DNA from: Candidatus Zixiibacteriota bacterium | Lineage (GTDB): Bacteria > Zixibacteria > MSB-5A5 > GN15 > FEB-12 | Assembly: GCA_035380245.1 (NCBI GenBank) | Contig: DAOSXA010000002.1 | Coordinates: 268,625 to 332,624, forward strand | Direction: 5' to 3' | Length of the DNA: 64,000 nucleotides | Part shown: positions 18,899 through 60,828 of the stretch, piece by piece | How the letters are laid out: every line of letters begins with the position of its first letter | How positions within the stretch are numbered: position 1 is the first letter of the stretch | Made by a program: the position numbers and the translations under genes | The notes under the pieces: generated by a model | Database searches by the model: none | The model's input: only the letters and a program-made list of their open reading frames with translations | Told to the model about the DNA's origin: nothing

Positions 18899-19361
18899 CT
18901 TCTATCTCATTATGCTGTGGCTTAGAACCTTCGAATTCATCCGCCAGTTTCTGAGCTATTATTTCCTTAACCGAACGGGACTCATAAAAGCCTTCTGCGA
19001 TTCGTTGCTGCACTAACTCCAACCGAGAGACTCTCCCATAGCCTGAGGTGGATTCCGCCAGCCCTTTGTTTGATCGGGCAACGGCCAGACTATCGGCCAG
19101 GCTATCATAGAGTTGTGCTTCTTCAGCAGCAGTTTCAACCGCATCAACGGTCCCGGCGGCATAGCTGTCACACTGGTTGTCGGTAATAAGGGATAAGTCT
19201 GCCAGGTCGGCAAGTTCGGCACGTGTCTGCGTCCGAATATACTTGTCTTCTACGACCTGTCGGTCTTCTACCCCTTTTTGCCTTGCGGGACTGTCGCAGG
19301 TCCCCTTTCTCAAAGACTCGTTGTTCTGAACCGGTCCTATCTCCATCTTTTCACCTTCCAT
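18888..19361 (-). CDS. flgM: Anti-sigma-28 factor FlgM-like protein
   Basis: 157 aa, low-complexity N-terminal half. The C-terminal LVQQRIAEGFYESRSVKEIIAQKLADEF matches the FlgM sigma28-binding helix pattern (I..G.Y.v....IA.KL). Located next to a FlgN-family gene. Confidence 0.6.
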   Translation of the reverse strand: MEGEKMEIGPVQNNESLRKGTCDSPARQKGVEDRQVVEDKYIRTQTRAELADLADLSLITDNQCDSYAAGTVDAVETAAEEAQLYDSLADSLAVARSNKGLAESTSGYGRVSRLELVQQRIAEGFYESRSVKEIIAQKLADEFEGSKPQHNEIEDDS

Positions 19362-25211: not shown

Positions 25212-25236
25212 ATCGGCAGAACCTTTAACAACTTTA
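25212..25236 (-). promoter_or_regulatory. Sigma28 (FliA-type) promoter of the flagellin gene
   Basis: Minus strand reads TAAAG-N14-GCCGATTT (TAAA-N15-GCCGAT). This predicts a leader of about 205 nt. Confidence 0.7.
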
Positions 25237-37710: not shown

Positions 37711-37732
37711 ACAAACCTCCGCTTTACCTATA

Positions 37733-37748
37733 GCGAAGACTGTGCCAA
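37733..37748 (-). promoter_or_regulatory. Sigma54 promoter of the flgF-...-fliW operon
   Basis: Minus strand reads tTTGGCAC-agtct-TCGCtATAGG with exact -24/-12 spacing. The predicted TSS is about 12 nt before the ATG and includes GGAGG. Confidence 0.7.
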
Positions 37749-38251: not shown

Positions 38252-38368
38252 AATGCTTGAAGATATAGACTGACAGTTACTTACAGCGTACACACTTAGC
38301 AGCGACGAAATTTCACAGATGTAGCACTGTTTTTGCTTGACCAGAGATCAAAGCAAAGGGAAAAGCAT

Positions 38369-45960: not shown

Positions 45961-45976
45961 TGCAAGGTCCGTGCCA
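45961..45976 (-). promoter_or_regulatory. Consensus sigma54 promoter of the flgB-...-fliJ operon
   Basis: Minus strand reads tTTGGCAC-ggacc-TTGCAATAGG, a full match to TGGCAC-N5-TTGCA. It lies about 40 nt upstream of the flgB ATG. Confidence 0.8.
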
Positions 45977-47747: not shown

Positions 47748-47771
47748 AAAAAACCCCGGACAAGCCGGGGT
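47748..47771 (-). terminator. Rho-independent terminator ending the che/two-component string
   Basis: Minus strand reads ACCCCGG-cuugu-CCGGGGU followed by UUUUUU, 26 nt after the EBP stop codon. Confidence 0.8.
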
Positions 47772-47797
47772 CGTTTTCTATGCGATGACCGCAACGG

Positions 47798-49153
47798 TCA
47801 TTTGAAGGCATCCTTCATATTATATTCCGCCAGTTTGTTGCGGATAGTGCGCGTAGTAATCCCGAGTGCTTCGGCCGCTCGTGTTTTGTTGCCGTTATAC
47901 TTCTCGAGCGTCTTGAGAATCAGATACTTACTGCCTTCTTCGAGCTTCATCGGCACTTTCAGGGCCGGAACGTCATCGGCAATCGGACCAAGCGCCAGAT
48001 CGGCCGGGAAGTCATCATCGGTTAACATGTTGGTTTTCGAGGTAACCACCGCCCGCTCCACCAGATTTTCCAGTTCGCGGACATTACCGGGCCAATGGTA
48101 ACTCATGAACAAACGCAGGGCATCCGGTTCGATTCCCCGAATCTCCTTGTCGTTCTCAGTGTTGTATTTATCGATGAAATGCTGTACCAGCAGCGGGATA
48201 TCCTCAGCTCGCTCTTCGAGCGGACAAAGATGGATCGGGATTACGTTCAGACGATAGAAAAGATCCTCACGGAATTTGCCCGCAGCGATATACTCTTTGA
48301 GGTTGCGATTGGAAGTGGCAATCAGGCGCACATCAACCTGGATCGTTTCACTCGAGCCAACCCGTTCGAACTCGCGCTCCTGAATAACGCGCAACAACTT
48401 GGATTGCAGATTCAAGGGCATCTCGGAGATTTCATCGAGCAACAATGTCCCGCCGTCGGCCAGTTCAAAACGACCTCGACGCGTCTTCTTGGCATCGGTA
48501 AAAGCTCCCTTTTCAAATCCGAAAAGCTCTGCCTCAACCAGATTCTCCGGCAAAGCGGCACAGTTAAGCTTGATAAAGGGTGCTTCGGACCGATTGGAGG
48601 TCTGGTGAATCGCCCGTGCCACCAATTCCTTTCCGGTACCGGAAGGACCGGTAATCATAACCGTCGAGCGAGCCGAGGCAACCGATTCGATCAGGTCAAA
48701 CACCTCTTTCATCACTTTTGACTTACCGACGATATTCTGATACTTGGAAGCTAAATCACGACGCAACGAGGCATTTTCCGAGCGGAGAGTGAGTGTCTCG
48801 GTGATGCGATTCATCATATTTTCGAGCGGCTCGGGCATAACCGGCTTGAGCAGGAAATCATACGCCCCAAGCTTGATTGCCCTGACTGCGGTCTCGATCG
48901 TTCCGAACGCGGTCATCATAACCACGGCCGTTTCGGGAGAACGCTCCTTGATTGCCTCAATCACCTCCAGACCGTCCATTCCATCCATTTTATAGTCAGT
49001 CAGGACTATGTCCGTCGGGCGTTGTTCGAACTCCTCAATGGCCTCTTCCCCGGAATAGACACCGCGACAGTCGTAATCTGCCCGCTGCAGCGTTTCGATG
49101 AGGAAGTCATGCACCAGCCTGTCGTCGTCTACCACCAACACTGAGTATTTCAT
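47798..49153 (-). CDS. Sigma54-dependent response regulator (REC + AAA+ + Fis-type HTH), FlgR/FlrC-like
   Basis: 451 aa. Receiver (VLVVDDD...VLTDYKMDGMDG...LLKP). Walker A GPSGTGKE, sigma54-contact loop GAFTDA, C-terminal HTH (RAAEALGITTRTIRNKL). Confidence 0.9.
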   Translation of the reverse strand: MKYSVLVVDDDRLVHDFLIETLQRADYDCRGVYSGEEAIEEFEQRPTDIVLTDYKMDGMDGLEVIEAIKERSPETAVVMMTAFGTIETAVRAIKLGAYDFLLKPVMPEPLENMMNRITETLTLRSENASLRRDLASKYQNIVGKSKVMKEVFDLIESVASARSTVMITGPSGTGKELVARAIHQTSNRSEAPFIKLNCAALPENLVEAELFGFEKGAFTDAKKTRRGRFELADGGTLLLDEISEMPLNLQSKLLRVIQEREFERVGSSETIQVDVRLIATSNRNLKEYIAAGKFREDLFYRLNVIPIHLCPLEERAEDIPLLVQHFIDKYNTENDKEIRGIEPDALRLFMSYHWPGNVRELENLVERAVVTSKTNMLTDDDFPADLALGPIADDVPALKVPMKLEEGSKYLILKTLEKYNGNKTRAAEALGITTRTIRNKLAEYNMKDAFK

Positions 49154-50487
49154 TTAGTTTGCTCCATGCTTACTGAATCGCATCGGGCCGGCAGCAACAG
49201 GTGAAAAGCTGCCCCTCCCAACGGTCCGTCGTCGACAAAAACCTCGCCTCCATGAGCTTTGACAACTTTCCAGACAACGGCCAATCCCAGGCCGTTGCCG
49301 CCTTTTCTAATCGAGAAAAAGGGCGAGAATACTCGCTCCCGGTATTCGCGTTTTATTCCCGGGCCGGAATCGTGAACAATCACCTCGACTACGGTTTCGT
49401 CGTTGTCAAGCAGCAGCCGCTCACCTAGCTCACGGCGTGCTTCGATCACCGACCAGCGTTTGACTTCCAGACCCACAACGCCTTCCCCTTTGATCGCCTG
49501 GACTGCGTTTTGAAGAAGATTAATCACAGCCTGCTTGATCAGAATGGGATCAAATTGCAACGACAACGACTCATTATTAACTGAACGATCGACCTCAAAA
49601 CTGACATCACCGATTTTCCCTCGATTTTCAGCGGTATACCGATCAACCGTATCCACCAGGAATTTTCGCATATCGAGGTAAGTCTTATTAATTTCTTCGA
49701 AACGTGTATAATTTAAAAGGGTCGACACCGTTTTATTCAGTGTCTCTACCCCCTTCACTATCTTGGTCGCGGTTTTGTGACGGCTATCCTCCTCATCCAG
49801 ATCCCGCTGGAGCAACGCCGCAAATCCGGCTATCCCGTTTAGAGGATTGCGGACCTCATGGGCAATCGTGGCCGCCATTTCACCCAGCGCCGCCAGGGTA
49901 TTCAGGCGCGCCAGCTCACTCTCCATTCGCTTTACCCGAGTCAGGTCGTGAAGGACCTCAACCGCACCCGACAACTGACCCTCAGCATCACGCATGAGAG
50001 TCGTTGAAACCGATAGATGCACCGACCGACCGTTCGTCAGCACCACCTGCCGCTCGACAGAATCTACCGTCTCACCCGTTTCAGTTGCTCGTAAGGCGCT
50101 GGCTTTGGGGGCATTTCCCAGGGGAATAGTCTTGCGGTATGACTTCCCCAGCACTGCCGCCTGTCCTATTTGCAGAATCGCAGCCGCGGCCGGATTAAAA
50201 TGAGTGATACAACCGTCACGATCAACTGCGATCACACCGGCCGACAACGAGTTAAGAATTCCATTCAGAAACTCCGTGGCAACCAGGTTGCGCTCGCTCA
50301 ATTCCACCAGGCGTTGATTAGCGCGTGCCAACTGCTCGTTTTGAGCACTAAACTCATCCTTGAGTTCAATATACTGACGCTGGAGTGAGTTGATTACTCG
50401 ATTGAAAGCAGCATAGGAATCTGTAAAACGGGAAATATCTTCCGTGTTCTCGGGGCGTGTTAACGTTACTTTTTTTGTGTTGTCCAT
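49150..50487 (-). CDS. Cytoplasmic coiled-coil/PAS sensor histidine kinase, FlgS/FlrB-like
   Basis: 445 aa with no TM segment. PAS-like region (GVIAVDRDGCITHFNPAAAAIL), H-box TIAHEVRNPLNGI, and HATPase (DSGPGI...GNGLGLAVV). Overlaps the EBP start by 4 nt. Confidence 0.85.
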   Translation of the reverse strand: MDNTKKVTLTRPENTEDISRFTDSYAAFNRVINSLQRQYIELKDEFSAQNEQLARANQRLVELSERNLVATEFLNGILNSLSAGVIAVDRDGCITHFNPAAAAILQIGQAAVLGKSYRKTIPLGNAPKASALRATETGETVDSVERQVVLTNGRSVHLSVSTTLMRDAEGQLSGAVEVLHDLTRVKRMESELARLNTLAALGEMAATIAHEVRNPLNGIAGFAALLQRDLDEEDSRHKTATKIVKGVETLNKTVSTLLNYTRFEEINKTYLDMRKFLVDTVDRYTAENRGKIGDVSFEVDRSVNNESLSLQFDPILIKQAVINLLQNAVQAIKGEGVVGLEVKRWSVIEARRELGERLLLDNDETVVEVIVHDSGPGIKREYRERVFSPFFSIRKGGNGLGLAVVWKVVKAHGGEVFVDDGPLGGAAFHLLLPARCDSVSMEQTK

Positions 50488-50555
50488 CTACCTTCCCAAC
50501 CTCTTATCAGGGGGCACGAAGCGCACTTATGGGAAAGCAATCAACAAAAACTTGA

Positions 50556-51674
50556 TCAGAAGTAAGAGAGTAATTCGTCCGCGATCTCATCAATGGGAAC
50601 AATATGATCAGCTAGACCGGCGTTGATCGCCGCTTTTGGCATGCCATAAACCACGCAGGTAGCCTCGTTTTGTGCTATTACGATGCCTCCCTTGTTTTTG
50701 ACATCCTTAAGACCATCCAGACCATTACTCCCCATTCCGGTCAGGATAGCGGCCATCGTAAACTTACCGTAGCGCTCGGCTACCGACTTTAAGGTATTGT
50801 CAATACATGGCTTATAGATCGCTGATGGCGGATAATCGCTGACTACTACATGTTGCCCCGTACTGGAGCGTGCCAGCGCCATCTGCTTACCACCGGGTGC
50901 TATCAGGACTGTTCCCGGACTTACCGGATCGCCGCTGATTGCCAGCCGAACCGTTACCTTTGAAACCCGGTCCAACCGATCAGCCAGCGGCTGAGAAAAA
51001 GCAGCCGGCATGTGTTGAACGACAATTACTCCCACCGGAAGATTCCGCGGCAACCGGGCAATCACGGCTTCCAGAGCTGGCGGGCCACCGGTAGATGCGC
51101 CAATAACTATCACGTTGATATGATGATAGCGGTGCTGGTGTCTCCTGCGAGGTTTCCATTCCGGCGCTGCCGCTTGTCCTGAAATCAGTTTTGCCGACTC
51201 GTCGTGTGCTTTCTTCAATTGCAGTATCTGACGACTGCGATACATTGCCATCAGGAGGCTTTTACGACGGCCGATATCCTTAATTTTGGCCAGTAATTCA
51301 TCCTTAATTTTGACAATGTCAATGCTGACAAACGACTGCCCTTTAGCAATATAGTCTATTGCCCCCATCGCCAGGGCATCCAGGGTGGCGCCGGCGCCTT
51401 CCGTAGTCATGGAAGAAACCATTAATACCGGAGTAGGATTGTGTTGCATGATTTGTCGAAGAGCGGCGATACCGTCCATGCGTGGCATCTCCACATCCAT
51501 CGTGACCAGGTCAGGCTTCAGACGTTTGGTTTTCTCCACTGCCTCTTCCCCGTCACGGGCCGTGCCGATCACCTTAATCGCCGGATCGGATTCCAGCATT
51601 ATCGTTAAGGCCTTCCGCATGAAAGCGGAGTCATCGACTACGAGAACACTTACTTGTCCGGCTGTTTGTTGCAT
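50556..51674 (-). CDS. cheB: Chemotaxis response regulator protein-glutamate methylesterase CheB
   Basis: REC (VLVVDDSAFMR...TMDVEMPRMDG), a long basic linker, and the catalytic domain (VIGASTGGPPAL...QHMP...DGMP). I place the start at the ATG at 51674 (MQQTAGQ...). The track start at 51737 would overlap cheA by 59 nt. Confidence 0.9.
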   Translation of the reverse strand: MQQTAGQVSVLVVDDSAFMRKALTIMLESDPAIKVIGTARDGEEAVEKTKRLKPDLVTMDVEMPRMDGIAALRQIMQHNPTPVLMVSSMTTEGAGATLDALAMGAIDYIAKGQSFVSIDIVKIKDELLAKIKDIGRRKSLLMAMYRSRQILQLKKAHDESAKLISGQAAAPEWKPRRRHQHRYHHINVIVIGASTGGPPALEAVIARLPRNLPVGVIVVQHMPAAFSQPLADRLDRVSKVTVRLAISGDPVSPGTVLIAPGGKQMALARSSTGQHVVVSDYPPSAIYKPCIDNTLKSVAERYGKFTMAAILTGMGSNGLDGLKDVKNKGGIVIAQNEATCVVYGMPKAAINAGLADHIVPIDEIADELLSYF

Positions 51675-51678
51675 GTTT

Positions 51679-53415
51679 TCAGGCTGGAACGTGTGAGGTT
51701 TGCTTTTTAACGAGATTGAACAGCCCCACCAAATCAACGATCAAGCGAACTCGGCCATCCCCCATAATGGTGGCGCCGGTTATCCCGGAGTCATTCCCGA
51801 TGAGATCACCCATCGACTTGATTACGACCTCTTCCTGTCCCTGAAAGCGGTCTATCATAATTCCCATCTTTTTATCGGCTAATCCGACCACTACCACATA
51901 CGGCTTCTCAGTGAGTACGTTGTTTGAAGATACTTTGCCGTAAACCGAGGCGAGGTTGACAATCGGGATTACTTCATCGCGAAGCCTCAATACCGGTCGA
52001 CGGTTCATCTGGTGCACGGCGGATGCTTCCATCCGGATCGTTTCAATCACCGATGCCAGCGGCAATACATACACTTCCCCGTCAGTCTCCACCAGCAATC
52101 CCCTGATAATCGCCAGTGTCAGCGGCAGTTTTATTGTCATCGTGGTTCCCACGAACGGCTCTGACTGAAGCTCGATAATCCCGTTCAGCTTCTCGATATT
52201 GGTCCGCACCACATCCATCCCTACCCCTCGTCCGGATATCCCGGTGACGGCTCTGGCGGTAGAGAATCCCGCTTGAAACACGAAATCGAATACCTGTCGC
52301 TCGGTGAGTTTCTCCGACTCGATCGGATCGATCATACCGCGCTCTATCGCTTTCAGACGTACCGCCTCGTGATTTATCCCCCGCCCGTCATCTCGCACGG
52401 TCACGACGATGTTGGAACCTTCTTGTCGGGCATCGAGCCAGATATTCCCGACTTCGGATTTCCCATGCTTCAAGCGCATCTCGGGTGATTCGATACCATG
52501 ATCGCAGGCATTACGAATGACATGCATCAGCGGATCACTGATTTCCTCGATGACGGTTTTATCCAGCTCCGTCTCCTGTCCCGAGATATGAAGATCGATT
52601 TGCTTTCCGACTTCCCTTGAAAGGTCACGCACCTGGCGCGGGAAACGAGCGAATACCCGACCGATCGGCAACATACGCATCTTCATGACCGCCATCTGTA
52701 TTTCAGTAGTCAGGAAACTGACTGTGGTCGAGGCTTGCCCTACGGCTTCGAGACGATGTTGATTTGGCATCTCAACCGAAGCCTGTGAAACGCTCTGTAC
52801 CAGGCTGTTTCGTCCGAGAACCAGTTCTCCGATCAGGTTTATCAGATGATCCAGACGATCGACATCCACCCGTATGGTATGATCGGCAGATTTACTGCGC
52901 CCGGCTGTTTCTTCTTTCGACTGCCTGGCTTCTTCTACATCCGATTCGGATTGGACCGTTTCGGCAACTGCCGCGTCATTCGGTTCGACCGGATCGGGCT
53001 CCGATCTTTCGCTCTGGTAAATCGCATCCAGACGTTTCAGGATATTATCCTGGTCAGGAGGAGAAAGCGATTCGTCTCTTATCGAATCGAGCGTGACCTT
53101 AAGTAAATCAAGCCCTTCAAGCAGAGTATCCATTATTATGGGAGTAAGACTCAGGCTATGCTTGCGCAACCGATTCAGAACATCTTCCATTTTGTGGGTT
53201 AGCCCGGTAACGGCTTCAAGACCAAGAAAACTGGAAGTGCCTTTGATAGTATGAACTGCGCGGAATATCTCGTTAAGCAGATCGGGATTATCGGGTGATG
53301 CTTCGAGGTCAACGAACCTGCTGTCCAGCGTTTCGGCCAATTCATCCGCTTCGATCAGGAAATCACCGATAATTTCCTGCATTTGCTCCATGTCAAGATC
53401 GGTATTGTTTCCCAT
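51679..53415 (-). CDS. cheA: Chemotaxis histidine kinase CheA (P1-P3-P4-P5, no P2)
   Basis: 578 aa. Hpt domain with FRAVHTIKGTS, an acidic linker, a dimerisation region (IRVDVDRLDHLINLIGELV), HATPase (HVIRNACDHGIE...DDGRGI...GRGVGMDV) and a CheW-like C-terminus. Confidence 0.9.
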   Translation of the reverse strand: MGNNTDLDMEQMQEIIGDFLIEADELAETLDSRFVDLEASPDNPDLLNEIFRAVHTIKGTSSFLGLEAVTGLTHKMEDVLNRLRKHSLSLTPIIMDTLLEGLDLLKVTLDSIRDESLSPPDQDNILKRLDAIYQSERSEPDPVEPNDAAVAETVQSESDVEEARQSKEETAGRSKSADHTIRVDVDRLDHLINLIGELVLGRNSLVQSVSQASVEMPNQHRLEAVGQASTTVSFLTTEIQMAVMKMRMLPIGRVFARFPRQVRDLSREVGKQIDLHISGQETELDKTVIEEISDPLMHVIRNACDHGIESPEMRLKHGKSEVGNIWLDARQEGSNIVVTVRDDGRGINHEAVRLKAIERGMIDPIESEKLTERQVFDFVFQAGFSTARAVTGISGRGVGMDVVRTNIEKLNGIIELQSEPFVGTTMTIKLPLTLAIIRGLLVETDGEVYVLPLASVIETIRMEASAVHQMNRRPVLRLRDEVIPIVNLASVYGKVSSNNVLTEKPYVVVVGLADKKMGIMIDRFQGQEEVVIKSMGDLIGNDSGITGATIMGDGRVRLIVDLVGLFNLVKKQTSHVPA

Positions 53416-53433
53416 ACGCCCGCTGTCCCGGCG

Positions 53434-54027
53434 CTACGATTCGTCCTTGGGTGAGAACAGGTTGTCGATATCCTCCTGTGCGGTGCGCTTGGTCACCAGA
53501 TCGGCATTGGGATCGAACACTCGTTCGCGGTGGCGATCATTATCCTCACCCTGGTCATCGTAACCCTGCATCACCGTTAGAATACGGCGCAACTTGTTCT
53601 CGATATCTTCAAGCAACCAGGCGGCATGGTTCATTTGTTGAGCGGTAATATCCTGAAACTGGAGGTTGTCGACCAACGTGTAAGTATCATCGAGATTATG
53701 ATTGGCATGTTCGATGAGTCTGTCAATCAGATCTCGGAAATGGGTCATATCTTTTCCTTCGATCTGTGGTCTCAAATGACTTAGCCCATCGATCGTAGCC
53801 TCTTCGCGTGCTTGAATCTGTTCGATCATATCCAACATTCGCTGGGTCGCGGCTTCCGTCTGTTCGTTGATCTTGTCCAGTTGTCTGGTTGCTTTGGGGA
53901 CTTTGGCCTGACTTTCAGCCAACGGTCGCTGGATATCACGAAACTGACCAACCACGTTGTTAATCGACTTGGCCAGTTCGAACACCTCGTTTTGTATCTG
54001 GTTCTGCAGATTACTGGAATCCGACAT
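53434..54027 (-). CDS. cheZ: CheZ-like CheY-P phosphatase
   Basis: 197 aa, helical. The motif LQFQDITAQQMNH matches the CheZ catalytic FQDLTGQ region. The acidic C-terminal tail EDIDNLF resembles the CheY-binding peptide. Confidence 0.6.
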   Translation of the reverse strand: MSDSSNLQNQIQNEVFELAKSINNVVGQFRDIQRPLAESQAKVPKATRQLDKINEQTEAATQRMLDMIEQIQAREEATIDGLSHLRPQIEGKDMTHFRDLIDRLIEHANHNLDDTYTLVDNLQFQDITAQQMNHAAWLLEDIENKLRRILTVMQGYDDQGEDNDRHRERVFDPNADLVTKRTAQEDIDNLFSPKDES

Positions 54028-54053
54028 CTTTATCTCCTTACCTGCCCTAAGCC

Positions 54054-54431
54054 TCAGTCGGCCAGGATCTGCTCTATTTTTTGTTTCAGGGTATCCGGCG
54101 TGAACGGTTTTACGATATAGTTGTTCACTCCGGCTTTCAGGGCCTGCACGATGTCATCCTTGACCGAACGCGTCGTCACCATCAGGATCGGCAAGGTTTT
54201 ATACTCTTCGGTTGCACGAAGCGTATGAACAAAAGTCAGGCCGTCCATTTCCGGCATATTCCAGTCGGTAATAATAAAATCGTAATTATCTATCTTCATC
54301 TTGGCCAGGGCATCCTTGCCGTCGGTGGCTTCTTTGATATCGTTGTAGCCGGCTCGTCTGAGCGTGTTGATAATTATGCGCCGCATCGTCGGGCTGTCAT
54401 CCACGGCTAGTATTTTTATATCGTGCACCAT
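54054..54431 (-). CDS. cheY: Chemotaxis response regulator CheY
   Basis: 125 aa. ILAVDDSPTMRRI...ITDWNMPEMDG...MVTT...VKPFT is the classical CheY pattern. Confidence 0.9.
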   Translation of the reverse strand: MVHDIKILAVDDSPTMRRIIINTLRRAGYNDIKEATDGKDALAKMKIDNYDFIITDWNMPEMDGLTFVHTLRATEEYKTLPILMVTTRSVKDDIVQALKAGVNNYIVKPFTPDTLKQKIEQILAD

Positions 54432-54436
54432 ACCTC

Positions 54437-54856
54437 CTATTGTGCTTCATCTGCCTGCTTCAGGAATTTGGACACTTCCTCCAGGAGCAACGAGCTCTTG
54501 AATGGTTTGACCAGATAAGATGTCGCTCCGACTTCCATGCCGCGATCGATATCCGAGTCCTCGGATTCCGAACTGAGAATGATAATCGGTGTTTCCCGAT
54601 GCATTTCATTGGCGCGAAGAGTGGAGATTAGGCCGTAGCCGTCAAGGTTCGGCATATTGAGATCGGTTATGACGAGATCAACCCGCCCCCCCTGATTCGA
54701 GAGCTTCTCGACCGCATCCATTCCATCACAGGCAGTGATAACCTCGTACCCACTTTGTTTGAGCGAAAACGCTACGAACTTCACCAAAGTAGGAGAGTCA
54801 TCGACAATCATGATTGTCTGTGACATCGCATTTCGTCCTGTATCTGCGTTGTTCAT
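54437..54856 (-). CDS. Stand-alone receiver (CheY-like) protein
   Basis: 139 aa. IMIVDDSPT...VITDLNMPNLDG...ILSS...LVKPF. All phospho-acceptor pocket residues are present. Confidence 0.85.
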   Translation of the reverse strand: MNNADTGRNAMSQTIMIVDDSPTLVKFVAFSLKQSGYEVITACDGMDAVEKLSNQGGRVDLVITDLNMPNLDGYGLISTLRANEMHRETPIIILSSESEDSDIDRGMEVGATSYLVKPFKSSLLLEEVSKFLKQADEAQ

Positions 54857-55845
54857 TTTGTTCCTGCTGTTACCGGCTTGACTTTACTCAAGAGGTCCAA
54901 GGCGCGAGAGGCTCCGCTGGTTGTCCCGATCGAGGTTGTCGTATTCATGCCTCTCAAACCATTGGAACGATTTTCGACCTTCAGGTTTTCTTTGTGGTAA
55001 ACCAACGAGTTTTTCAGATAGACCAGCTTGAATGCCTTCGTCAAACCGTGTAAGGTCTCCGAATGGCCTATATAGAAATGACCGCCGGGGCGTAATGAAT
55101 TGTAAAAGCCTCTGACGATTTGACTTTTCATCTGATCCGAGAAATAGATCATCACATTCCGACAGAAGATAATATCGATATCGGAATGCCTGGCAACCTG
55201 ACGCTGGTCGGCGAGATTGATATGCGAGAATCTGACCATCGAGCGCACCTCGGGCTTGATCAGATACACTTCACTGTTTTCCTTGCGAGTGAAATGCTTT
55301 GCCAACACATTGGGCTTGACATAACGTAAAGTCTGACCGGTATATTCCCCCACTCGGGCTTTCTTGAGAACCTGTTCGGAAATATCATTGGCAATTATTT
55401 CGAACTGCAGGTTGTTCCTGGGGCCGAGTTTGTCCAGAATAAGCATCGCCAGCGTATATGGTTCTTCACCCGTAGAACAACCGGCCGACCATATTTTAAT
55501 CGGTCGCTTAAAGCGACTACCTTCAGCTTGTTTTACCAATTGCGGCAGCAGCTCTTCTGAGAACGAGCGAAGTTGGGGTTCGTTACGGAAGAAATAGGTC
55601 TCGTTGGTCGTCACCAAATTGATCAACTGACCGAACTCGGTATTAGACGAGTCATACTTAACGGCGTAGAAATAATCACGATAAGTCTTGATATTCAACT
55701 CGGACATACGCGTGATCAAACGGTTCTTGAGCAAATACATTTTGCTCTCGGCGAAATAGATGCCGCACCGCTGATGAATGAAATCGCGAATCATCACGAA
55801 TTCTTCCGGCGTCATATCCGGGGTCATATCGGGATTATTCAGCAT
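54853..55845 (-). CDS. cheR: Chemotaxis protein methyltransferase CheR (with ~50-aa C-terminal extension)
   Basis: 330 aa. FVMIRDFIHQRCGIYF...TNETYFFRNEPQ...IWSAGCSTGEEPYTLAM. It ends in an S/T/G-rich tail. Confidence 0.9.
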   Translation of the reverse strand: MLNNPDMTPDMTPEEFVMIRDFIHQRCGIYFAESKMYLLKNRLITRMSELNIKTYRDYFYAVKYDSSNTEFGQLINLVTTNETYFFRNEPQLRSFSEELLPQLVKQAEGSRFKRPIKIWSAGCSTGEEPYTLAMLILDKLGPRNNLQFEIIANDISEQVLKKARVGEYTGQTLRYVKPNVLAKHFTRKENSEVYLIKPEVRSMVRFSHINLADQRQVARHSDIDIIFCRNVMIYFSDQMKSQIVRGFYNSLRPGGHFYIGHSETLHGLTKAFKLVYLKNSLVYHKENLKVENRSNGLRGMNTTTSIGTTSGASRALDLLSKVKPVTAGTK

Positions 55846-55914: not shown

Positions 55915-56361
55915 TCAATCAACTCTAAGATCATCCCCGACCGGATGACGTGATACCGACGGATTAATCGTACGCTGATAACGCCGCACTCCGCGCTGAA
56001 CAGCTCCAATCAATTCCTGGAGATCGAATGGTTTTGTTAATAGATCACATGCTCCATGACGCATCGCTTCCACTACCCCATCCAGAGTCGGACAACCTGA
56101 AAGAAGGATAACCGATGACTCCGGGCAGTATTCCTGTAAGCGGACAAGGAGCTCAGTATTGCTCATCCCCGGAAGGTCGACATCGATCATTATGACCGAC
56201 CAGCCGTCGGTAGCCGTCCGTTCGAGCACATGCCCGCAATTGGCAGCCGTCTCGGCATGATAACCGGACTCGATCAAAGCCTCGAGTACATTATCGCAGA
56301 CCTCAGGATTGGCGTCAGCCACCAGAATGCGATCGGCTTCTGTGATATTGTTGCTTTTCAC
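55915..56361 (-). CDS. Stand-alone receiver protein (variant acidic pocket)
   Basis: 148 aa. ILVADANPE (AD in place of DD), IMIDVDLPGMS, LLSG, LTKPF, plus a ~25-aa tail. Confidence 0.75.
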   Translation of the reverse strand: MKSNNITEADRILVADANPEVCDNVLEALIESGYHAETAANCGHVLERTATDGWSVIMIDVDLPGMSNTELLVRLQEYCPESSVILLSGCPTLDGVVEAMRHGACDLLTKPFDLQELIGAVQRGVRRYQRTINPSVSRHPVGDDLRVD

Positions 56362-56744
56362 TGCTGCGGTACGTCCTTGTCAATATGCGATTTAATGATC
56401 CTGAACAGCTCATTGATATTGAACGGCTTGGTAACATAATCAGAGATCTTGCTTCGTAACGCGGCAACGGCCGACTCCACCGATGGAAATCCCGTCATGA
56501 TAACCACCGGCATGTCCGGATGCTCTTCTCGAACCAGACGAGCCAGATCAAGTCCGTCCATTTGAGGCATTCTGAGATCGGTCAAAACCAGATCTATTTC
56601 CTTTTCCTTGAGTATCCCGAGCGCTTTCTCTCCGGTGTCGGCAATGGCGATTTGCCAACCCTGTCCCGCGAAGAAATCGTAAAGCAGATCGCGGATCAGA
56701 AGCTCATCGTCCACCACCAGAATCGAGGGTTGCTCGTGCATCAT
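56358..56744 (-). CDS. Stand-alone receiver protein
   Basis: 128 aa. ILVVDDELLIRD...VLTDLRMPQMDG...IMTG...VTKPF. Confidence 0.85.
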   Translation of the reverse strand: MMHEQPSILVVDDELLIRDLLYDFFAGQGWQIAIADTGEKALGILKEKEIDLVLTDLRMPQMDGLDLARLVREEHPDMPVVIMTGFPSVESAVAALRSKISDYVTKPFNINELFRIIKSHIDKDVPQQ

Positions 56745-58678
56745 CGTCCTCCTAGTTCCGCGAGGGCCAGTTCGGCTGCCTGCGCCACATCCTTGTTCTT
56801 ATCGCTGGTCATGTCCTGTATCTGGAGACGATACTCGGCGGCCGTCATGGCAGCCAGCGCCTTGACCGCTGCTATACGCAGGACATCTTCTCGAACTGAA
56901 AGCATGGGAGCGATTAAATCGGCATACTCCCGTTGACCCAGTTCACCGATACAATTCACGGTGTGATACCGGACCCAGATGTCGTCATCATCCAGCATGA
57001 AACGGATATCAGGAACAGCCGCCGTACCTTTGATAGAGATCAAGGCTGAAACGGCGGCCTTGCGGACGGATGAATCCTCGTCCGAAAGCGACACCAGGAG
57101 GGGTTTTTCATCGATAATCTGCCCGATACGACCCAGCGAGCGGATAGCCAGCTTACGCACGGTCGCATCAGGATGATTGAGAGCTTCCGAAAGCGGGGCC
57201 ACTACCGATGAATCGCCGATCATTCCTAAAGCCTTCACGGCCAGGCGCTGCCTCTCCAATCCGGCGCTATGTAATTCCTGGGTGAATCTATCTACCGCTT
57301 TCATGCCGCCGACGACTATTAGCGCCCCCATCACCGCCTCTCGCACGTCCGGGTACGGATCCGCGAGCCCTTCGAAAAGGAAATCAACGTCCTCTTCTCG
57401 ACAAAGCCAACCAAGAGCCGCATAGGCTGCTCGACGAACATGTCCGTTGTCGTCCCGAGTCATGCGACGCAGATGACCAACAGCCTCTTCCCATCCGGAG
57501 ATTCCCATAATATGAGCTATCCGCTGCTTGATACCCGGATTGTCGATATTGATATATTTAACCAATCCCCGGGCTACACCGGGATCGATATTCTGACGCA
57601 GGACATCCAGAATCAGCAGTTTCGTCTCGTCATCGGTGGTTTCAAACCGGTCGAGAAGACAACCGACCGCTATCGGTCCGGCATCTTCCAGGATATCCAT
57701 GATACGTCGTCGTTCCGTGTCGCCGACAACCGGCAGGACATCGACGAGCGAATAGAGTACATCCCGGCCGTACCAGTGCTTCAGACGCGTCAGCGTGAAA
57801 TCGGTAATCCTTTTATTGCCGGCGCGAATTCCCTCAAAGAGAAAATCCTTGAATCTATCCAACGGCAAATCGTAGTCGATACGGCCGCGGTTAGCCAGCG
57901 CTATATTGATCACTGACATCATAGCCGTCTCGGCAATGGTTCGGTCCCGGTTATCGAGAAACGGCATTAACCTCTCGATTGCAGCGACATTCCCGATATA
58001 CCCAATCGCCTCCAGGGCAGCGAAAACCACCATCGGATCATCAGCCTGCAAATGCTCATAGAGATGCTCCAGGGTTTGTTCACCTCCGCACTTCCCGAGC
58101 GCTTCGATCAACGGCAGGAGGGCATCATCGCCCCGACTCATAGCCGCCTGCAACGCAGGAACGGCCTCGGCATTGCCTATCTCACCGAGCGCCTCGGCCG
58201 CGGAGCAAACCACGTTGAGATTCTCATCATCGAGCATTCCACAAAGCGTCAGGACTGCTCGTGGATCCTTGATCATACCCAGCACATCAGCCACGAATTT
58301 CCGTACATCCGCATCGGCGTTCCGACACTCCTCCACCAGCGGTATGACGGCATCATCGCCGATTTTAACCAGGATCTCAGCCGCCAGATTGCGTGCCCCG
58401 ATTTCGTCATGACCAAGGAATCGGATGAGCAGCCGACAGGCCAGCTCCCCTTTCCTCTCGGTTAGCTGATGAGCCGCCAGTTCACGAATTCCAAGATCGG
58501 GATCTTCGATAGCCAGGACCAACCCGGCCACCGCTTCATCCTCACTGAAATTGCCCAGCTCACGCACGGCCTCCTCCCGCTCGTAGAAGTCGGGAGACTG
58601 CAACTGCGAAAGCAACTCGCTGATCTTATCAACGACCGTAGTTATCATCACTCGATAGCCCCGTTCCAGCCGGGACAT
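56741..58678 (-). CDS. HEAT-repeat (PBS-lyase-type) protein, 645 aa
   Basis: About 18 tandem ~30-aa repeats of the form D.D..VR..A..ALG.IG...A...L, for example EREEAVRELGNFSEDEAVAGLVLAIEDPDLGIRELAAHQL. No other domain is recognisable. Confidence 0.8.
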   Translation of the reverse strand: MSRLERGYRVMITTVVDKISELLSQLQSPDFYEREEAVRELGNFSEDEAVAGLVLAIEDPDLGIRELAAHQLTERKGELACRLLIRFLGHDEIGARNLAAEILVKIGDDAVIPLVEECRNADADVRKFVADVLGMIKDPRAVLTLCGMLDDENLNVVCSAAEALGEIGNAEAVPALQAAMSRGDDALLPLIEALGKCGGEQTLEHLYEHLQADDPMVVFAALEAIGYIGNVAAIERLMPFLDNRDRTIAETAMMSVINIALANRGRIDYDLPLDRFKDFLFEGIRAGNKRITDFTLTRLKHWYGRDVLYSLVDVLPVVGDTERRRIMDILEDAGPIAVGCLLDRFETTDDETKLLILDVLRQNIDPGVARGLVKYINIDNPGIKQRIAHIMGISGWEEAVGHLRRMTRDDNGHVRRAAYAALGWLCREEDVDFLFEGLADPYPDVREAVMGALIVVGGMKAVDRFTQELHSAGLERQRLAVKALGMIGDSSVVAPLSEALNHPDATVRKLAIRSLGRIGQIIDEKPLLVSLSDEDSSVRKAAVSALISIKGTAAVPDIRFMLDDDDIWVRYHTVNCIGELGQREYADLIAPMLSVREDVLRIAAVKALAAMTAAEYRLQIQDMTSDKNKDVAQAAELALAELGGR

Positions 58679-58684
58679 CTATCC

Positions 58685-59035
58685 CTAACCGGCCTGCACT
58701 GTTTGATATGAGTTGACCGCTTCTTCTTCGGTGTTGAAAATCTCGAAGATGTGCGACAACTGCGTTATATCAAAAATCTCCTGGACATAGGAAGCCAGAT
58801 CAGAGAGCGTCAACCGCCCTTTACGCAAACGGACTTCCTTCATGATCGATACAAGCGCCCCCAAACCGGAGCTGTTGATAAACTCCACCCGGGACAGGTT
58901 GAGATGGATCGAGGTTCGTTCTTTTTCGAACAGATTCTTGATCTCTTCTTTCAGCGTAGCACCACTGGCGAGGTCAAGACGACCACGTAGTTCCATGACA
59001 CTCACTTCACCGGATTCTTTGGTAACGATCTCCAT
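58685..59035 (-). CDS. STAS-domain anti-sigma-factor antagonist (RsbV/SpoIIAA-like)
   Basis: 116 aa. VMELRGRLDL....L...I....E......L.LS.VEFINSSGLGALV, including the conserved phosphorylatable Ser motif. Confidence 0.9.
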   Translation of the reverse strand: MEIVTKESGEVSVMELRGRLDLASGATLKEEIKNLFEKERTSIHLNLSRVEFINSSGLGALVSIMKEVRLRKGRLTLSDLASYVQEIFDITQLSHIFEIFNTEEEAVNSYQTVQAG

Positions 59036-59057
59036 TACATCCTCCGTCTCTCATCGT

Positions 59058-59495
59058 TTATTCGCATATTTCTTTCATTTTCTCACTTATATCCAAACTC
59101 ACCGATACAATGAGTCCGCCATGTTCAGCTTCGGCGAACTCAACGTTACTGGCACAATGGCATACGATATCGATCCCACGGCCTCCTTCGGACATCGAAT
59201 CGGCCTGTGGACGCCGTTGGATACGTTCAAGGCCGCCATGCCCTTGATCAATTATATCGGCCGTAATGCGCTCCTCATTAATAGCGAACCTGACTTCAAT
59301 CTTGCGATTTGCATCTGATTTGTTGCCGTGGATCACGGCATTGGTGAACACTTCCGAGACAATTAAGAGGAACCGCCGCGTAGTGGTATCGTCGACTCCG
59401 GCTGCCTCCAGGCGTTCGGTAAGAACCTGGACAAGCTCTCGCTCAGCTTCTAAAGTTGATGGATATGTGAATCGCTCTATCACGGAATCACTCAA
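59058..59495 (-). CDS. RsbW/SpoIIAB-like anti-sigma factor / serine protein kinase
   Basis: 145 aa. N-box VSEVFTNAVIHGN, G1 box DQGHG, G2 box GGRGIDIV. Confidence 0.85.
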   Translation of the reverse strand: MSDSVIERFTYPSTLEAERELVQVLTERLEAAGVDDTTTRRFLLIVSEVFTNAVIHGNKSDANRKIEVRFAINEERITADIIDQGHGGLERIQRRPQADSMSEGGRGIDIVCHCASNVEFAEAEHGGLIVSVSLDISEKMKEICE

Positions 59496-60828
59496 CCTTC
59501 GTCAACAGAATAGTGAAATCATCATGGCTGTCCTCCGTCGAGCCTTCCTGAAACTTATCAACCCATTCTTTAACTCTCAGGCAGAACTCCTTGGGCGCCA
59601 ACATGCCTTCGACTACGAATACTTGCTCCGCCCGCTCTCGGCCGAATAAATTGCCGTCGGAATCTTCAGCTTCAGTCAACCCATCGGTAAACAAGAAAAG
59701 CCTGTCACCCGGTCTGAGCGGCCTCCGTCCCTGGACAAATTTAAGCCCTTCAAACTGCCCCACGATCGGTCCCCCCTCGGCTAATTGCACCACTGTACGA
59801 TCCTGCGAATCCCAGAATAGGCCAGGCAAATGTCCGGCATTGCAAAAATCCAGATAGCCCTGTTCGAAATCGAACTTGGCAAAGAAAAGAGTCGCAAACA
59901 TTTCCCGCTCACGAACGATTTCTCGAACCAGCAGATCATTGAGGGTTGCCGCCAGATCCGAGACCGAGATGTCGGGACGGTGATATAGCGTCGACTTGAT
60001 AATACCCGAAGCGGCCGACATGATCAGAGCCGCCGGGACGCCTTTGTTTGAGACATCACCGATCACCACCAGGTACTGCCGCTCGGCGATCTTGATTACA
60101 TCGTAAAAATCACCACCGACTTCACGCGCCGGGAAATAGGCCGCTCCGATCTCCAGACCCGGTAACTTCTCGAATCCGCGCGGCAGAATCGTTTCTTGAA
60201 TTTGCCCGGCTATCGCCATTTCCTGCTTGATCTTCTGTTGCTTCAGGCGCTCTTTCATCAGCCGCGAATTATCGATTGCCACAGCTAAGAAATCTAGCAA
60301 CATCTCCAGGCCGGAGCGATCGGCAACGGTGAATCCACCCTCTCCTCTCTTGTTGATAATCATTATCACCCCCAGGGATGCTTTCTGGGTGCGGATGGGC
60401 AGACAAATAATCTCATTGATCCGGGTGCCGTTATCGTCGACGATCCCGACCTCGTTTAAAACCACTATCTCTTTATTGGCATGGCAATAAGTAGGAAGAT
60501 CCTGCTGATCGACATATTTGAGACTTCGGGCAAAAGTCTCATCGACCCCCCAGGCTACTTCCATGGTTAACTCCCCGTTCTTTTCGAGCATGATCAGGCC
60601 GACTTCACCCTGGACCAGACGAACCGCCATATCCATAACGAGAGGCAGGACGGTATTCAGATCGAGCACCGAAGTAATCGCGGCTCCCATCGTGGCCAGG
60701 TCGGCGAGTTGATTACGAGTGATTTCAAGTTCTCGTTCCAACTCGCGGCAGGTCACGGATGTATTGGTCGTAATTCCGTCCATATCGGTATTTATCGGCC
60801 GACCAGGCCGATTTCTTACCGATTTCAC
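59488..60828 (-). CDS. GAF-domain PP2C (SpoIIE/RsbU-type) serine phosphatase
   Basis: 446 aa. GAF-like N-terminal half (LNTVLPLVMDMAVRLVQGEVGLIML...). PP2C motifs GGDFYDV, IGDVSNKG and FTDGLTEA. Confidence 0.85.
   Translation of the reverse strand: MKSVRNRPGRPINTDMDGITTNTSVTCRELERELEITRNQLADLATMGAAITSVLDLNTVLPLVMDMAVRLVQGEVGLIMLEKNGELTMEVAWGVDETFARSLKYVDQQDLPTYCHANKEIVVLNEVGIVDDNGTRINEIICLPIRTQKASLGVIMIINKRGEGGFTVADRSGLEMLLDFLAVAIDNSRLMKERLKQQKIKQEMAIAGQIQETILPRGFEKLPGLEIGAAYFPAREVGGDFYDVIKIAERQYLVVIGDVSNKGVPAALIMSAASGIIKSTLYHRPDISVSDLAATLNDLLVREIVREREMFATLFFAKFDFEQGYLDFCNAGHLPGLFWDSQDRTVVQLAEGGPIVGQFEGLKFVQGRRPLRPGDRLFLFTDGLTEAEDSDGNLFGRERAEQVFVVEGMLAPKEFCLRVKEWVDKFQEGSTEDSHDDFTILLTKVE

What the first reader, a model, noticed from the sequence alone, without database searches (positions are those of the whole stretch)
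58685..60828. An RsbU/RsbW/RsbV-type partner switch with no cognate sigma factor nearby, embedded in flagellar and che genes, may target sigma28
Seen in sequence:
- A complete trio is present: a GAF-PP2C phosphatase, a 145-aa RsbW-like kinase with intact N, G1 and G2 boxes, and a STAS protein with the INSSGLG phospho-Ser motif.
- The 64 kb contains no sigma factor gene.

Established knowledge: RsbW and SpoIIAB sequester group-3 sigma factors (SigB, SigF). FliA/SigD (sigma28) belongs to the same group. The window contains at least three sigma28-type promoters (flagellin, motAB and a small ORF) and a separate FlgM-like gene.

Inference: the RsbW-like protein could be a second anti-sigma28 factor, independent of secretion. 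That would make late flagellar gene expression respond to the GAF-sensed ligand or to the Che receivers. Alternatively, the STAS protein may be the output itself, as in sigma-independent partner switches.
Basis: inference. Interest (0 to 1): 0.6.

Follow-up and report, generated by a model that had tools for sequence, protein, structure and literature searches.

The report
Flagellar-operon partner-switch module in Zixibacteria
A standard three-protein phosphorylation switch (phosphatase, kinase, small STAS protein) starts a late flagellar/chemotaxis operon in an uncultured Zixibacteria genome and in about 80 related species, apparently transcribed by the flagellar sigma factor, but what the switch controls is still unknown.

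Summary
Three adjacent minus-strand genes encode a GAF-PP2C phosphatase, an RsbW-type serine kinase with intact ATP-binding boxes, and a STAS protein with the phosphorylatable serine. No sigma factor gene lies in the window, in 18 kb of extra flank, or within 10 kb of the trio in 80 related species.

New findings:
- The trio is conserved across Zixibacteria and is always followed by an NtrC-type stand-alone receiver (REC128).
- The HEAT-repeat gene and the che genes are optional inserts. A FlgS/FlgR-like kinase and sigma54 activator with their own sigma70-type promoter follow.
- A sigma28-type promoter (TMAA-N15-GYCGATA) ends 7-9 nt before the phosphatase ATG in about 70 of 77 loci, which predicts a leaderless late-flagellar transcript.
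- STAS is the most conserved trio member (72% identity) and the kinase the least (41%). Five species fuse kinase and STAS.

The link to sigma28 is therefore real at the transcriptional level. Whether the kinase sequesters sigma28 is untested and not favoured. An HsbA-like model, with STAS as the output, fits slightly better.

Verdict: a new member of a known kind, of moderate interest.

The parts
60792..60818 (-). Sigma28-type promoter TAAGAAAT-N11-GCCGATAA. The -10 box ends 8 nt before the phosphatase ATG, which predicts a leaderless transcript.
   Evidence: - The pattern TAAR-N15-GCCGATWW has 2 hits in the window against 0.05 expected.
- It is the top hit (19.2 bits) of a PWM built only from other species.
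- The same box at the same distance occurs in 70 of 77 loci. The -35 T (58/70) and A (64/70) were not used for selection.
- With the strict pattern, 23 of 29 operon-strand matches in 1.19 Mb lie at this site, and the opposite strand has none.
- A Shine-Dalgarno-like motif precedes the ATG in only 5/76 loci, against 74/75 for STAS.
59488..60783 (-). GAF-PP2C (SpoIIE-family) serine phosphatase, 431 aa. The longest ORF runs up to a GTG at 60828.
   Evidence: - Pfam SpoIIE 5.5e-43 and GAF 5.5e-8.
- More than 120 orthologues at 55-64% identity, mostly 430 aa.
- Catalytic aspartates are invariant.
59058..59483 (-). RsbW/SpoIIAB-type GHKL serine kinase, 141 aa (145 aa from the TTG at 59495)
   Evidence: - Pfam HATPase_c_2 2.5e-19.
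- Best PDB relatives are RsbW 6m36 (4.4e-6) and SpoIIAB.
- N, G1 and G2 boxes are conserved in 73 orthologues.
- Scores fall below all NCBIfam equivalog cut-offs.
- Median identity among species is 41%.
58685..59035 (-). Single-domain STAS protein (anti-sigma-antagonist type), 116 aa, with phospho-acceptor Ser56 in FINSSGLG
   Evidence: - Pfam STAS 3.2e-22 and TIGR00377 1.6e-22, above cut-off.
- PDB relatives are TM1442, SpoIIAA and RsbV.
- Median identity is 72%, and the C-terminal half is nearly invariant.
- It is fused in frame to the kinase in L029, L046, L078, L082 and L084.
56741..58678 (-). HEAT-repeat protein, 645 aa. An accessory insert between STAS and REC128.
   Evidence: - Pfam HEAT_2 1.4e-71.
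- Present in 20 of 36 loci that reach the kinase gene.
- Every locus with the che block also has it.
56358..56744 (-). REC128: stand-alone NtrC-type receiver domain, the invariant fourth gene of the module
   Evidence: - Pfam Response_reg 5.3e-30.
- Best NCBIfam matches are receivers of AtoC, NtrX, ZraR and NtrC, not CheY.
- 36% identical to the receiver of the downstream sigma54 activator.
- Present after STAS in all 67 loci that extend far enough.
- Median identity is 65%.
55915..56361 (-). REC148: second, poorly conserved receiver (optional)
   Evidence: - Pfam Response_reg 2.2e-17.
- Found in 20 loci, with a median identity of 32%.
50556..55845 (-). Optional chemotaxis block: CheR, REC139, CheY, CheZ, CheA, CheB
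   Evidence: - Pfam and gene calls in L001.
- Absent in 19 of 36 complete loci.
50525..50553 (-). Sigma70-type promoter with an A/T-rich upstream element (AAGTTTTTG-TTGATT-N17-ATAAGT) in front of the histidine kinase gene
   Evidence: The motif AAAGTTTTTGTTGAA, followed after 17 nt by a TAATAT-like box, is conserved upstream of the kinase gene in nearly all loci, whatever gene precedes it.
47798..50487 (-). PAS histidine kinase (49150-50487) and sigma54-dependent response regulator (47798-49153), FlgS/FlgR- or FlrB/FlrC-like
   Evidence: - Pfam and NCBIfam, including FlbD 8e-108 and FlgR 8.5e-101.
- They always follow the module.
- Sigma54-type promoters lie upstream of flgB (45961-45976) and flgF (37732-37747).
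47752..47772 (-). The only strong intrinsic terminator on this strand between 62300 and 45800, marking the end of the transcription unit
18888..19361 (-). Candidate divergent FlgM (anti-sigma28). A possible partner of STAS in an HsbA-like model.
   Evidence: - The protein itself has no family hit.
- Remote homologue P0128 hits Pfam FlgM at 3.6e-11, and P0123 and P0127 at 0.003.
- A shared C-terminal R-x6-R-x3-G-x-Y...IA motif is present.
- It lies after fliD, fliS and a flgN-like gene.

Best explanation
The three genes form a working partner-switch phospho-module that heads a late (sigma28-dependent) flagellar operon.

Proposed mechanism:
- The RsbW-type kinase phosphorylates STAS on Ser56.
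- The GAF-PP2C phosphatase removes the phosphate when its GAF domain senses a still unknown ligand.
- The invariably co-encoded NtrC-type receiver REC128 probably biases the kinase/phosphatase balance in trans. It would do what the fused receiver does in HsbR, CrsR, SypE and RsbY, with the neighbouring PAS kinase or CheA as phosphodonor.
- The output is the phosphorylation state of the very conserved STAS protein. STAS would then bind a partner outside the trio. The FlgM-like anti-sigma28 protein is the leading candidate, followed by the FlgS/FlgR-like sigma54 system.
- Motility gene expression would thus be tuned after sigma28 has switched on.

Shown here:
- domain content and intact catalytic motifs;
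- phylum-wide synteny;
- kinase-STAS fusions;
- the conserved sigma28-type promoter with no Shine-Dalgarno motif;
- the separate sigma70-type promoter of the downstream kinase and activator genes;
- the absence of any nearby sigma gene.

Inferred:
- the phosphotransfer reactions;
- the role of REC128;
- the identity of the STAS target.
For: - Domains and motifs.
- Synteny in 80 species, with REC128 in 67 of 67 informative loci.
- Kinase-STAS fusions in 5 species.
- Sigma28-type promoter. Missing Shine-Dalgarno motif.
- Relative conservation is STAS 72%, REC128 65%, PP2C 57% and kinase 41%. This suggests STAS has constrained surfaces beyond the kinase interface.
- REC128 is NtrC-like rather than CheY-like.
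- Precedent: unphosphorylated HsbA binds FlgM and frees FliA in P. aeruginosa. The hsbAR genes sit in the flagellar cluster with a weak FliA-dependent promoter.
- A probable divergent FlgM lies in the window.
Against: - No interaction was tested.
- The FlgM assignment is weak.
- In P. putida the HsbA-FlgM link could not be reproduced.
- Many strongly conserved STAS positions belong to the general STAS fold pattern.
- A fast-evolving protein can still be an anti-sigma factor, as FlgM itself shows, so the conservation argument is only suggestive.
- No fliA gene was seen, so the existence of sigma28 in these genomes rests on promoter motifs alone.
Confidence: 0.4

Rival explanations
1. The RsbW-like kinase is itself a secretion-independent anti-sigma28 factor. 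It sequesters FliA unless unphosphorylated STAS displaces it. Because the operon is sigma28-driven, this would form a negative feedback loop gated by the GAF ligand.
For: - The kinase is of the RsbW/SpoIIAB type, and its nearest solved relatives are anti-sigma B and anti-sigma F factors.
- Sigma28 is a group-3 sigma factor, like sigma B and sigma F (established knowledge).
- The conserved sigma28-type promoter in front of the module mirrors the autoregulated sigB and spoIIA operons.
- No other sigma gene lies nearby in 80 species.
- Fused kinase-STAS proteins do not exclude the model: Rv1364c-type fusions regulate a sigma factor (from memory; the PDB hit 3ke6 appears).
Against: - The kinase is the least conserved trio member (41%), although sigma28 is normally well conserved.
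- NCBIfam RsbW and SpoIIAB scores of 27-37 bits are far below the cut-offs of 135-155.
- Membership of the sigma28 regulon is shared by ordinary che and mot genes, so it does not identify the target.
- Orphan RsbW proteins have had unexpected targets, such as sigma66 in Chlamydia.
- No fliA sequence could be examined.
Confidence: 0.25
2. The module controls the chemosensory pathway rather than transcription. STAS or the kinase would act on the HEAT-repeat protein, the chemoreceptor array or the extra CheY-like receivers.
For: - In the window and in 17 of 36 complete loci, the trio is co-transcribed with the HEAT gene and cheR-Y-Y-Z-A-B.
- STAS and HEAT are separated by 6 nt.
- A review notes STAS-only proteins in motility and chemotaxis operons with unknown roles.
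Against: - HEAT and the che block are missing in 16 of 36 complete loci, while the trio, REC128 and the promoter remain unchanged.
- They therefore cannot be the obligatory target.
Confidence: 0.1
3. The kinase sequesters a different sigma factor encoded elsewhere (housekeeping, stress-type or ECF). Alternatively the module, together with REC128, acts as a late-stage brake on the FlgS/FlgR-like sigma54 system, with REC128 as a phosphate sink. Middle flagellar genes would then shut off once sigma28 is active.
For: - Chlamydial RsbW binds sigma66.
- The kinase domains of HsbR and CrsR bind RpoS.
- REC128 resembles the activator's own receiver (36% identity) and always lies between STAS and the kinase-activator pair.
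- Rod genes carry sigma54-type promoters.
Against: - This is purely contextual, with no direct evidence.
- No known partner switch acts on a sigma54 activator.
Confidence: 0.15

Closest known systems
HptB-HsbR-HsbA partner switch of Pseudomonas (PA3345-PA3347; PP_4362-4364)
   Same: - It uses receiver, PP2C, RsbW-type kinase and STAS functions.
- It is encoded inside the flagellar cluster, next to che and fli genes.
- It has partly FliA-dependent transcription.
- STAS Ser56 is the phospho-site.
- No sigma gene lies in the operon.
- STAS is the output (FlgM, diguanylate cyclases).
   Different: - Here the functions are split over four proteins (GAF-PP2C, kinase, STAS, REC128) instead of a REC-PP2C-kinase fusion plus STAS.
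- A GAF sensor is added, and no separate Hpt protein is present.
- The promoter is a strong, phylum-wide conserved sigma28 type and is leaderless.
- The organisms are Zixibacteria.
- Sequence similarity is only at domain level.
RsbU-RsbV-RsbW-sigma B (Bacillus) and SpoIIE-SpoIIAA-SpoIIAB-sigma F
   Same: - The same three domain families are present.
- The kinase has the same boxes.
- The phospho-serine motif in STAS is the same.
- The operon is preceded by a promoter for an alternative group-3 sigma factor.
   Different: - No sigma gene lies in or near the operon in any of 80 species.
- NCBIfam equivalog scores are far below the cut-offs.
- The input domain is GAF instead of the RsbU N-domain or a membrane domain.
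- STAS is far more conserved than the kinase.
Chlamydia RsbU-RsbW-RsbV1/V2
   Same: It is an orphan partner switch in an organism with sigma28 and sigma54, and its target sigma was not obvious from gene context.
   Different: - The chlamydial genes are dispersed.
- The reported target is the housekeeping sigma66.
- There is no flagellar context.
FlgM-sigma28 checkpoint
   Same: It is a post-translational control of late flagellar transcription whose own gene belongs to the sigma28 regulon (established knowledge).
   Different: - FlgM is a secreted, disordered protein with no kinase or STAS chemistry.
- The window seems to carry its own divergent FlgM candidate as well.

Membership tests
Partner-switching module (RsbU/RsbW/RsbV type) | PPM/PP2C (SpoIIE-family) phosphatase with catalytic aspartates | tested here: met
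   Pfam SpoIIE 5.5e-43. D225, D243, D367, D421 and D422 are invariant in 25 orthologues.
Partner-switching module (RsbU/RsbW/RsbV type) | Small GHKL serine kinase (HATPase_c_2) with N, G1 and G2 boxes | tested here: met
   Pfam 2.5e-19. The boxes are conserved in 73 orthologues. PDB relatives are RsbW and SpoIIAB.
Partner-switching module (RsbU/RsbW/RsbV type) | Single-domain STAS with a phosphorylatable Ser in a DSSGLG-like loop | tested here: met
   TIGR00377 at 79.4 bits against a cut-off of 53.45. FINSSGLG is invariant, and Ser56 aligns with the SpoIIAA phospho-site.
Partner-switching module (RsbU/RsbW/RsbV type) | The three genes are linked and inherited together | tested here: met
   The order is the same in 80 species. 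Kinase-STAS fusions occur in 5 species.
Partner-switching module (RsbU/RsbW/RsbV type) | The kinase phosphorylates STAS and the phosphatase reverses it | not testable with these tools
   This needs biochemistry.
Partner-switching module (RsbU/RsbW/RsbV type) | The kinase binds and inhibits a sigma factor, and the cognate sigma gene is in the same locus | tested here: not met
   The locus criterion fails: no sigma70-family ORF was found in the window or within 10 kb in 80 species. Binding itself is not testable here.
RsbW (sigma B) and SpoIIAB (sigma F) equivalogs | Score above the NCBIfam equivalog cut-off | tested here: not met
   TIGR01925 scores 36.5 against a cut-off of 135. TIGR01924 scores 28.4 against 155. 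NF003144 scores 27.1 against 145.
HptB-HsbR-HsbA system | REC-PP2C-kinase fused response regulator | tested here: not met
   The functions lie on separate proteins, and the phosphatase carries GAF instead of REC.
HptB-HsbR-HsbA system | Encoded in the flagellar cluster, with a receiver input and a STAS Ser56 output | tested here: met
   Gene map. REC128 is invariant. Ser56 is present.
HptB-HsbR-HsbA system | Unphosphorylated STAS binds FlgM | not testable with these tools
   A FlgM candidate is present but weakly supported.
Sigma28 (FliA) regulon, late flagellar operon | TAAA-N15-GCCGATAA-type promoter at a functional distance from the first gene | tested here: met
   This is in silico evidence only.
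Sigma28 (FliA) regulon, late flagellar operon | The genome encodes FliA, and transcription depends on it | not tested
FlgM (for ORF 18888-19361) | Match to Pfam PF04316 or TIGR03824 | tested here: inconclusive
   The protein has no hit itself. Remote homologue P0128 hits at 3.6e-11, and two others are sub-threshold. hhalign against E. coli FlgM was uninformative.

The most novel reading that the evidence does not exclude
Throughout the Zixibacteria, late flagellar gene expression would be governed by a second checkpoint that does not depend on secretion. A sigma28-transcribed, leaderless operon encodes an RsbW-type anti-sigma28 factor, or a STAS antagonist of FlgM. Its activity would be set by a GAF-sensed metabolite and by an NtrC-type receiver fed from the FlgS/FlgR-like system. 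Sigma54 (middle) and sigma28 (late) tiers would thus be coupled through serine phosphorylation.
Probability: 0.2. Interest if true: 0.6.

Novelty: new member of a known kind. Interest (0 to 1): 0.4.

Why it matters
Partner switches without a neighbouring sigma gene are common in genomes, but few have a known output. This orthologous group is conserved across an entire uncultured phylum. It has a clear regulatory address (a sigma28-type leaderless promoter) and a fixed fourth partner (REC128). That gives a well-defined set of candidate interactions: kinase with FliA, STAS with FlgM, STAS with REC128, and STAS with the activator. All of these can be tested with recombinant proteins or co-folding. 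If the module acts on sigma28 or FlgM, it would show that metabolic or phosphorelay gating of the flagellar late checkpoint, so far reported only for P. aeruginosa and disputed there, is an ancient and widespread design. If it does not, this remains an ordinary uncharacterised signalling module.

Tried and rejected
Searches that led nowhere:
- Word-indexed homologue searches with the kinase and with the 157-aa FlgM candidate returned only the protein itself. Context had to be reached through the phosphatase instead.
- An exact look-up of the 145-aa kinase ORF failed because public gene calls start 4 codons later.
- hhalign of the FlgM-candidate alignment against E. coli FlgM gave a meaningless alignment.
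- Literature searches for an RsbW-type anti-sigma28 in a flagellated bacterium, and for STAS/PP2C/HEAT modules in che clusters, found nothing specific. Nothing on Zixibacteria motility regulation was found either.

What could not be done:
- fliA could not be located. It is not in the window, in 18 kb of extra flank, or in any of the 80 loci.
- Structure prediction was not used. Single-chain folds would add nothing beyond the Pfam and PDB matches.

Readings considered and rejected:
- Chance ORFs or a degenerate kinase. All catalytic motifs are conserved in more than 70 species.
- Dependence of the FlgS/FlgR-like pair on sigma28 alone. These genes have their own conserved sigma70-type promoter.
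- HEAT or the che genes as the obligatory target. They are absent in 16 of 36 complete loci.
- Cross-talk with the second partner switch at 1989-4494 by close paralogy. STAS identity is only 25% and kinase identity 22%.
Full report
**1. Observation**

Three tightly packed minus-strand ORFs occupy the reported interval.

| ORF | Pfam assignment | Probable start |
|---|---|---|
| 59488-60828 | GAF + SpoIIE/PP2C, E=5.5e-43 | ATG at 60783, 431 aa |
| 59058-59495 | HATPase_c_2, E=2.5e-19 | 59483, 141 aa |
| 58685-59035 | STAS, E=3.2e-22 | as listed |

- The probable starts are taken from public gene calls.
- The window comes from a candidate division Zixibacteria genome (names).
- The nearest solved relatives of the kinase are RsbW (6m36) and SpoIIAB. 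Those of STAS are TM1442, SpoIIAA and RsbV.
- STAS Ser56, in FINSSGLG, aligns with the SpoIIAA phospho-serine position.
- In 73-75 orthologues the kinase N, G1 and G2 boxes and the STAS serine loop are conserved.
- The PP2C metal-binding aspartates are invariant.
- The kinase is not an equivalog of RsbW or SpoIIAB. Its scores of 27-37 bits fall far below the cut-offs of 135-155.

**2. No sigma factor nearby**

- All large ORFs of the window were assigned by eye or by Pfam. They are flagellar, chemotaxis, translation and housekeeping genes.
- phmmer with E. coli FliA, RpoS and RpoE against every ORF of at least 60 aa in the window and in 86 fetched loci (1.3 Mb) found nothing at E<=0.01.
- The flanks beyond both ends of the window also lack a sigma gene.
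- This part of the observation therefore holds, and it extends to the whole phylum.

**3. Comparative anatomy**

The phosphatase has hundreds of orthologues at 55-64% identity. A scan of species-representative genomes returned 80 loci, nearly all labelled Zixibacteria, GN15 or unclassified FCB-group MAGs. BLAST annotation with the window proteins gives an invariant order:

(der) - GAF-PP2C - kinase - STAS - [HEAT] - REC128 - [REC148] - [cheR-REC-cheY-cheZ-cheA-cheB] - PAS histidine kinase - sigma54 activator - motA - motB

Among the 36 loci that reach the histidine kinase gene:
- 17 have HEAT plus the che block.
- 3 have HEAT only.
- 16 have neither.
- All 36 have REC128.

A further 31 truncated loci also show STAS followed by REC128. 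The constant companions are REC128 and the FlgS/FlgR-like pair.

- REC128 is a stand-alone receiver whose best matches are receivers of NtrC-family activators, not CheY.
- REC128 is 36% identical to the receiver of the downstream activator.
- In five species the kinase and STAS are fused in frame into a protein of 265-276 aa. This is classical fusion evidence that they work as a pair.

**4. Promoters and transcription unit**

A sigma28-type promoter sits directly upstream of the trio.
- The pattern TAAR-N15-GCCGATWW occurs twice in the window against 0.05 expected. One match is upstream of flagellin (25210-25236). The other is at 60792-60818, where the box ends 8 nt before the phosphatase ATG.
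- The same arrangement recurs in 70 of 77 related loci. The consensus is T-[A/C]-A-A, 15 unconserved bases, then G-[C/T]-CGATA.
- The -35 T (58/70) and A (64/70) were not used to pick the sites. The gap from box to ATG is 7-9 nt in 57 of 70 loci.
- A weight matrix built only from other species ranks 60792-60820 first in the window, at 19.2 bits. Shuffled windows reached maxima of 12.7-17.6.
- With the strict pattern, 23 of 29 operon-strand matches in 1.19 Mb lie at the phosphatase start, and the opposite strand has no match.
- A Shine-Dalgarno-like motif precedes the phosphatase ATG in 5 of 76 loci, against 74 of 75 for STAS.
- Taken together, this predicts a leaderless or nearly leaderless sigma28-dependent mRNA.

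Other signals define the rest of the unit.
- The only strong terminator on this strand lies after the sigma54 activator, at 47752-47772.
- A separate, strongly conserved sigma70-type promoter with an A/T-rich upstream element lies in front of the histidine kinase gene in nearly all loci (AAAGTTTTTG-TTGAAn-N17-TAATAT-like; window 50525-50553).
- Sigma54-type promoters precede flgB (45961-45976, perfect match) and flgF (37732-37747).
- motA has its own sigma28-type promoter.

The picture is a three-tier hierarchy:
- Housekeeping promoter: the FlgS/FlgR-like pair.
- Sigma54: rod and hook genes.
- Sigma28: flagellin, stators, and the partner-switch/REC128(/che) operon.

In the species without inserts, the sigma28 unit proper is just phosphatase, kinase, STAS and REC128 (with or without REC148).

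**5. Constraint pattern**

Median identity to the window proteins across species:

| Protein | Median identity |
|---|---|
| CheY | 78% |
| STAS | 72% |
| Sigma54 activator | 72% |
| REC128 | 65% |
| Phosphatase | 57% |
| Kinase | 41% |
| REC148 | 32% |

- STAS is thus as constrained as CheY, while its kinase drifts.
- This is what one expects if STAS has additional conserved partners and the kinase mainly has to recognise STAS.
- The argument is only suggestive. FlgM itself is a poorly conserved anti-sigma factor, and part of the STAS conservation is fold-intrinsic.

**6. What it most likely does**

- High confidence: it is a functional partner-switch phospho-module, in which the kinase phosphorylates STAS Ser56 and the GAF-PP2C reverses this. 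It is expressed as a late flagellar operon together with REC128.
- Moderate confidence (0.4): STAS is the output. REC128 modulates the kinase/phosphatase balance in trans, as the fused receivers of HsbR, CrsR, SypE and RsbY do.
- The leading target candidate is the FlgM-sigma28 axis, by analogy with P. aeruginosa HsbA. Unphosphorylated HsbA binds FlgM and frees FliA.
- The window has a plausible but weakly supported FlgM at 18888-19361. It has no family hit itself, but remote homologue P0128 matches Pfam FlgM at 3.6e-11.
- A possible sigma28-type site inside fliS (20021-20049, 17.9 bits) lies upstream of the FlgM candidate.
The sigma28 promoter supports it by analogy with the autoregulated sigB and spoIIA operons. 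The conservation pattern and the sub-threshold family scores do not favour it.
- Caution comes from the literature. In P. putida the flagellar-cluster hsbAR-hptB genes do not affect FliA activity, and HsbA acts on diguanylate cyclases. Chlamydial RsbW targets sigma66.

**7. Novelty and verdict**

- The parts are canonical, and switches embedded in flagellar clusters are known from Pseudomonas.
- I found no description of this Zixibacteria orthologous group, or of an RsbW-type anti-sigma28 in a flagellated bacterium.
- I classify it as a new member of a known kind.
- Its noteworthy features are the phylum-wide sigma28-type leaderless promoter, the invariant NtrC-type receiver, and the kinase-STAS fusions.
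- Interest is 0.4.

Noticed in passing
window 1989-4494 (minus), with 25-1674; L087: A second, unrelated partner switch lies in the window. It consists of a 675-aa fusion of RsbW-type kinase, Cache-like/TM region, HAMP and PP2C (2467-4494) and a 129-aa STAS (1989-2378). These are followed by a 58-aa ORF, a GGDEF diguanylate cyclase (25-1674) and Wza/Wzz-type polysaccharide export genes. The arrangement recalls HsbA-HsbD or SiaABCD control of biofilm. Its STAS is only 25% identical to the flagellar one.
   Followed up: partly
L029 1738-2535, L046 1624-2454, L078 11293-12093, L082 3097-3909, L084 11266-12072: Five species have natural in-frame fusions of the RsbW-like kinase and STAS (265-276 aa), joined by a linker of about 25-30 residues.
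   Followed up: partly
window 50525-50553 (minus) and the equivalent site in about 35 loci: A strongly conserved motif, AAAGTTTTTGTTGAA, is followed 17 nt later by a TAATAT-like box. It lies upstream of the FlgS-like histidine kinase gene whatever gene precedes it. It is probably a housekeeping promoter with an UP-like element.
   Followed up: partly
window 45961-45976 and 37732-37747 (minus): Sigma54-type promoters (TGGCAC-N5-TTGC) lie upstream of flgB (perfect match) and flgF (1 mismatch). This fits the FlgR/FlrC-like activator at 47798-49153.
   Followed up: partly
window 20021-20049 (minus), inside fliS: This is the second-best match (17.9 bits) to the sigma28 matrix. It lies about 140 nt upstream of the flgN-like ORF (19419-19880) and the FlgM candidate. 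The score is close to the best value from shuffled sequence (17.6), so it may be chance.
   Followed up: no
window 27991-28467 and 30454-30798 (minus): FliW-like and CsrA-like genes flank flgL, assigned by eye from the translations. They would form the flagellin-FliW-CsrA translational partner switch known from Bacillus, a further post-transcriptional layer in the same cluster.
   Followed up: no
window 22811-24994 and 25307-27910 (minus): The flagellin is unusually long (727 aa). An 867-aa TPR/glycosyltransferase-like protein lies next to it, which suggests flagellin glycosylation (the 867-aa ORF was assigned by eye only).
   Followed up: no
window 59488-60783, GAF domain residues about 144-160: N144-K145 is invariant and is followed by [F/Y]-x3-D (NKRGEGGFTVAD). 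From memory, this resembles the NKFDE signature of cyclic-nucleotide-binding GAF domains. It may hint at the ligand class.
   Followed up: no
window 56741-58678; loci: Every locus with the che block also has the 645-aa HEAT-repeat protein, while three loci have HEAT without the che block. HEAT may be a chemosensory-array accessory in this phylum.
   Followed up: partly
window 38333-39127 (plus): This is the only sizeable plus-strand gene within the flagellar cluster. It encodes a secreted protein with a weak cohesin-like hit and dockerin-like C-terminal repeats.
   Followed up: no
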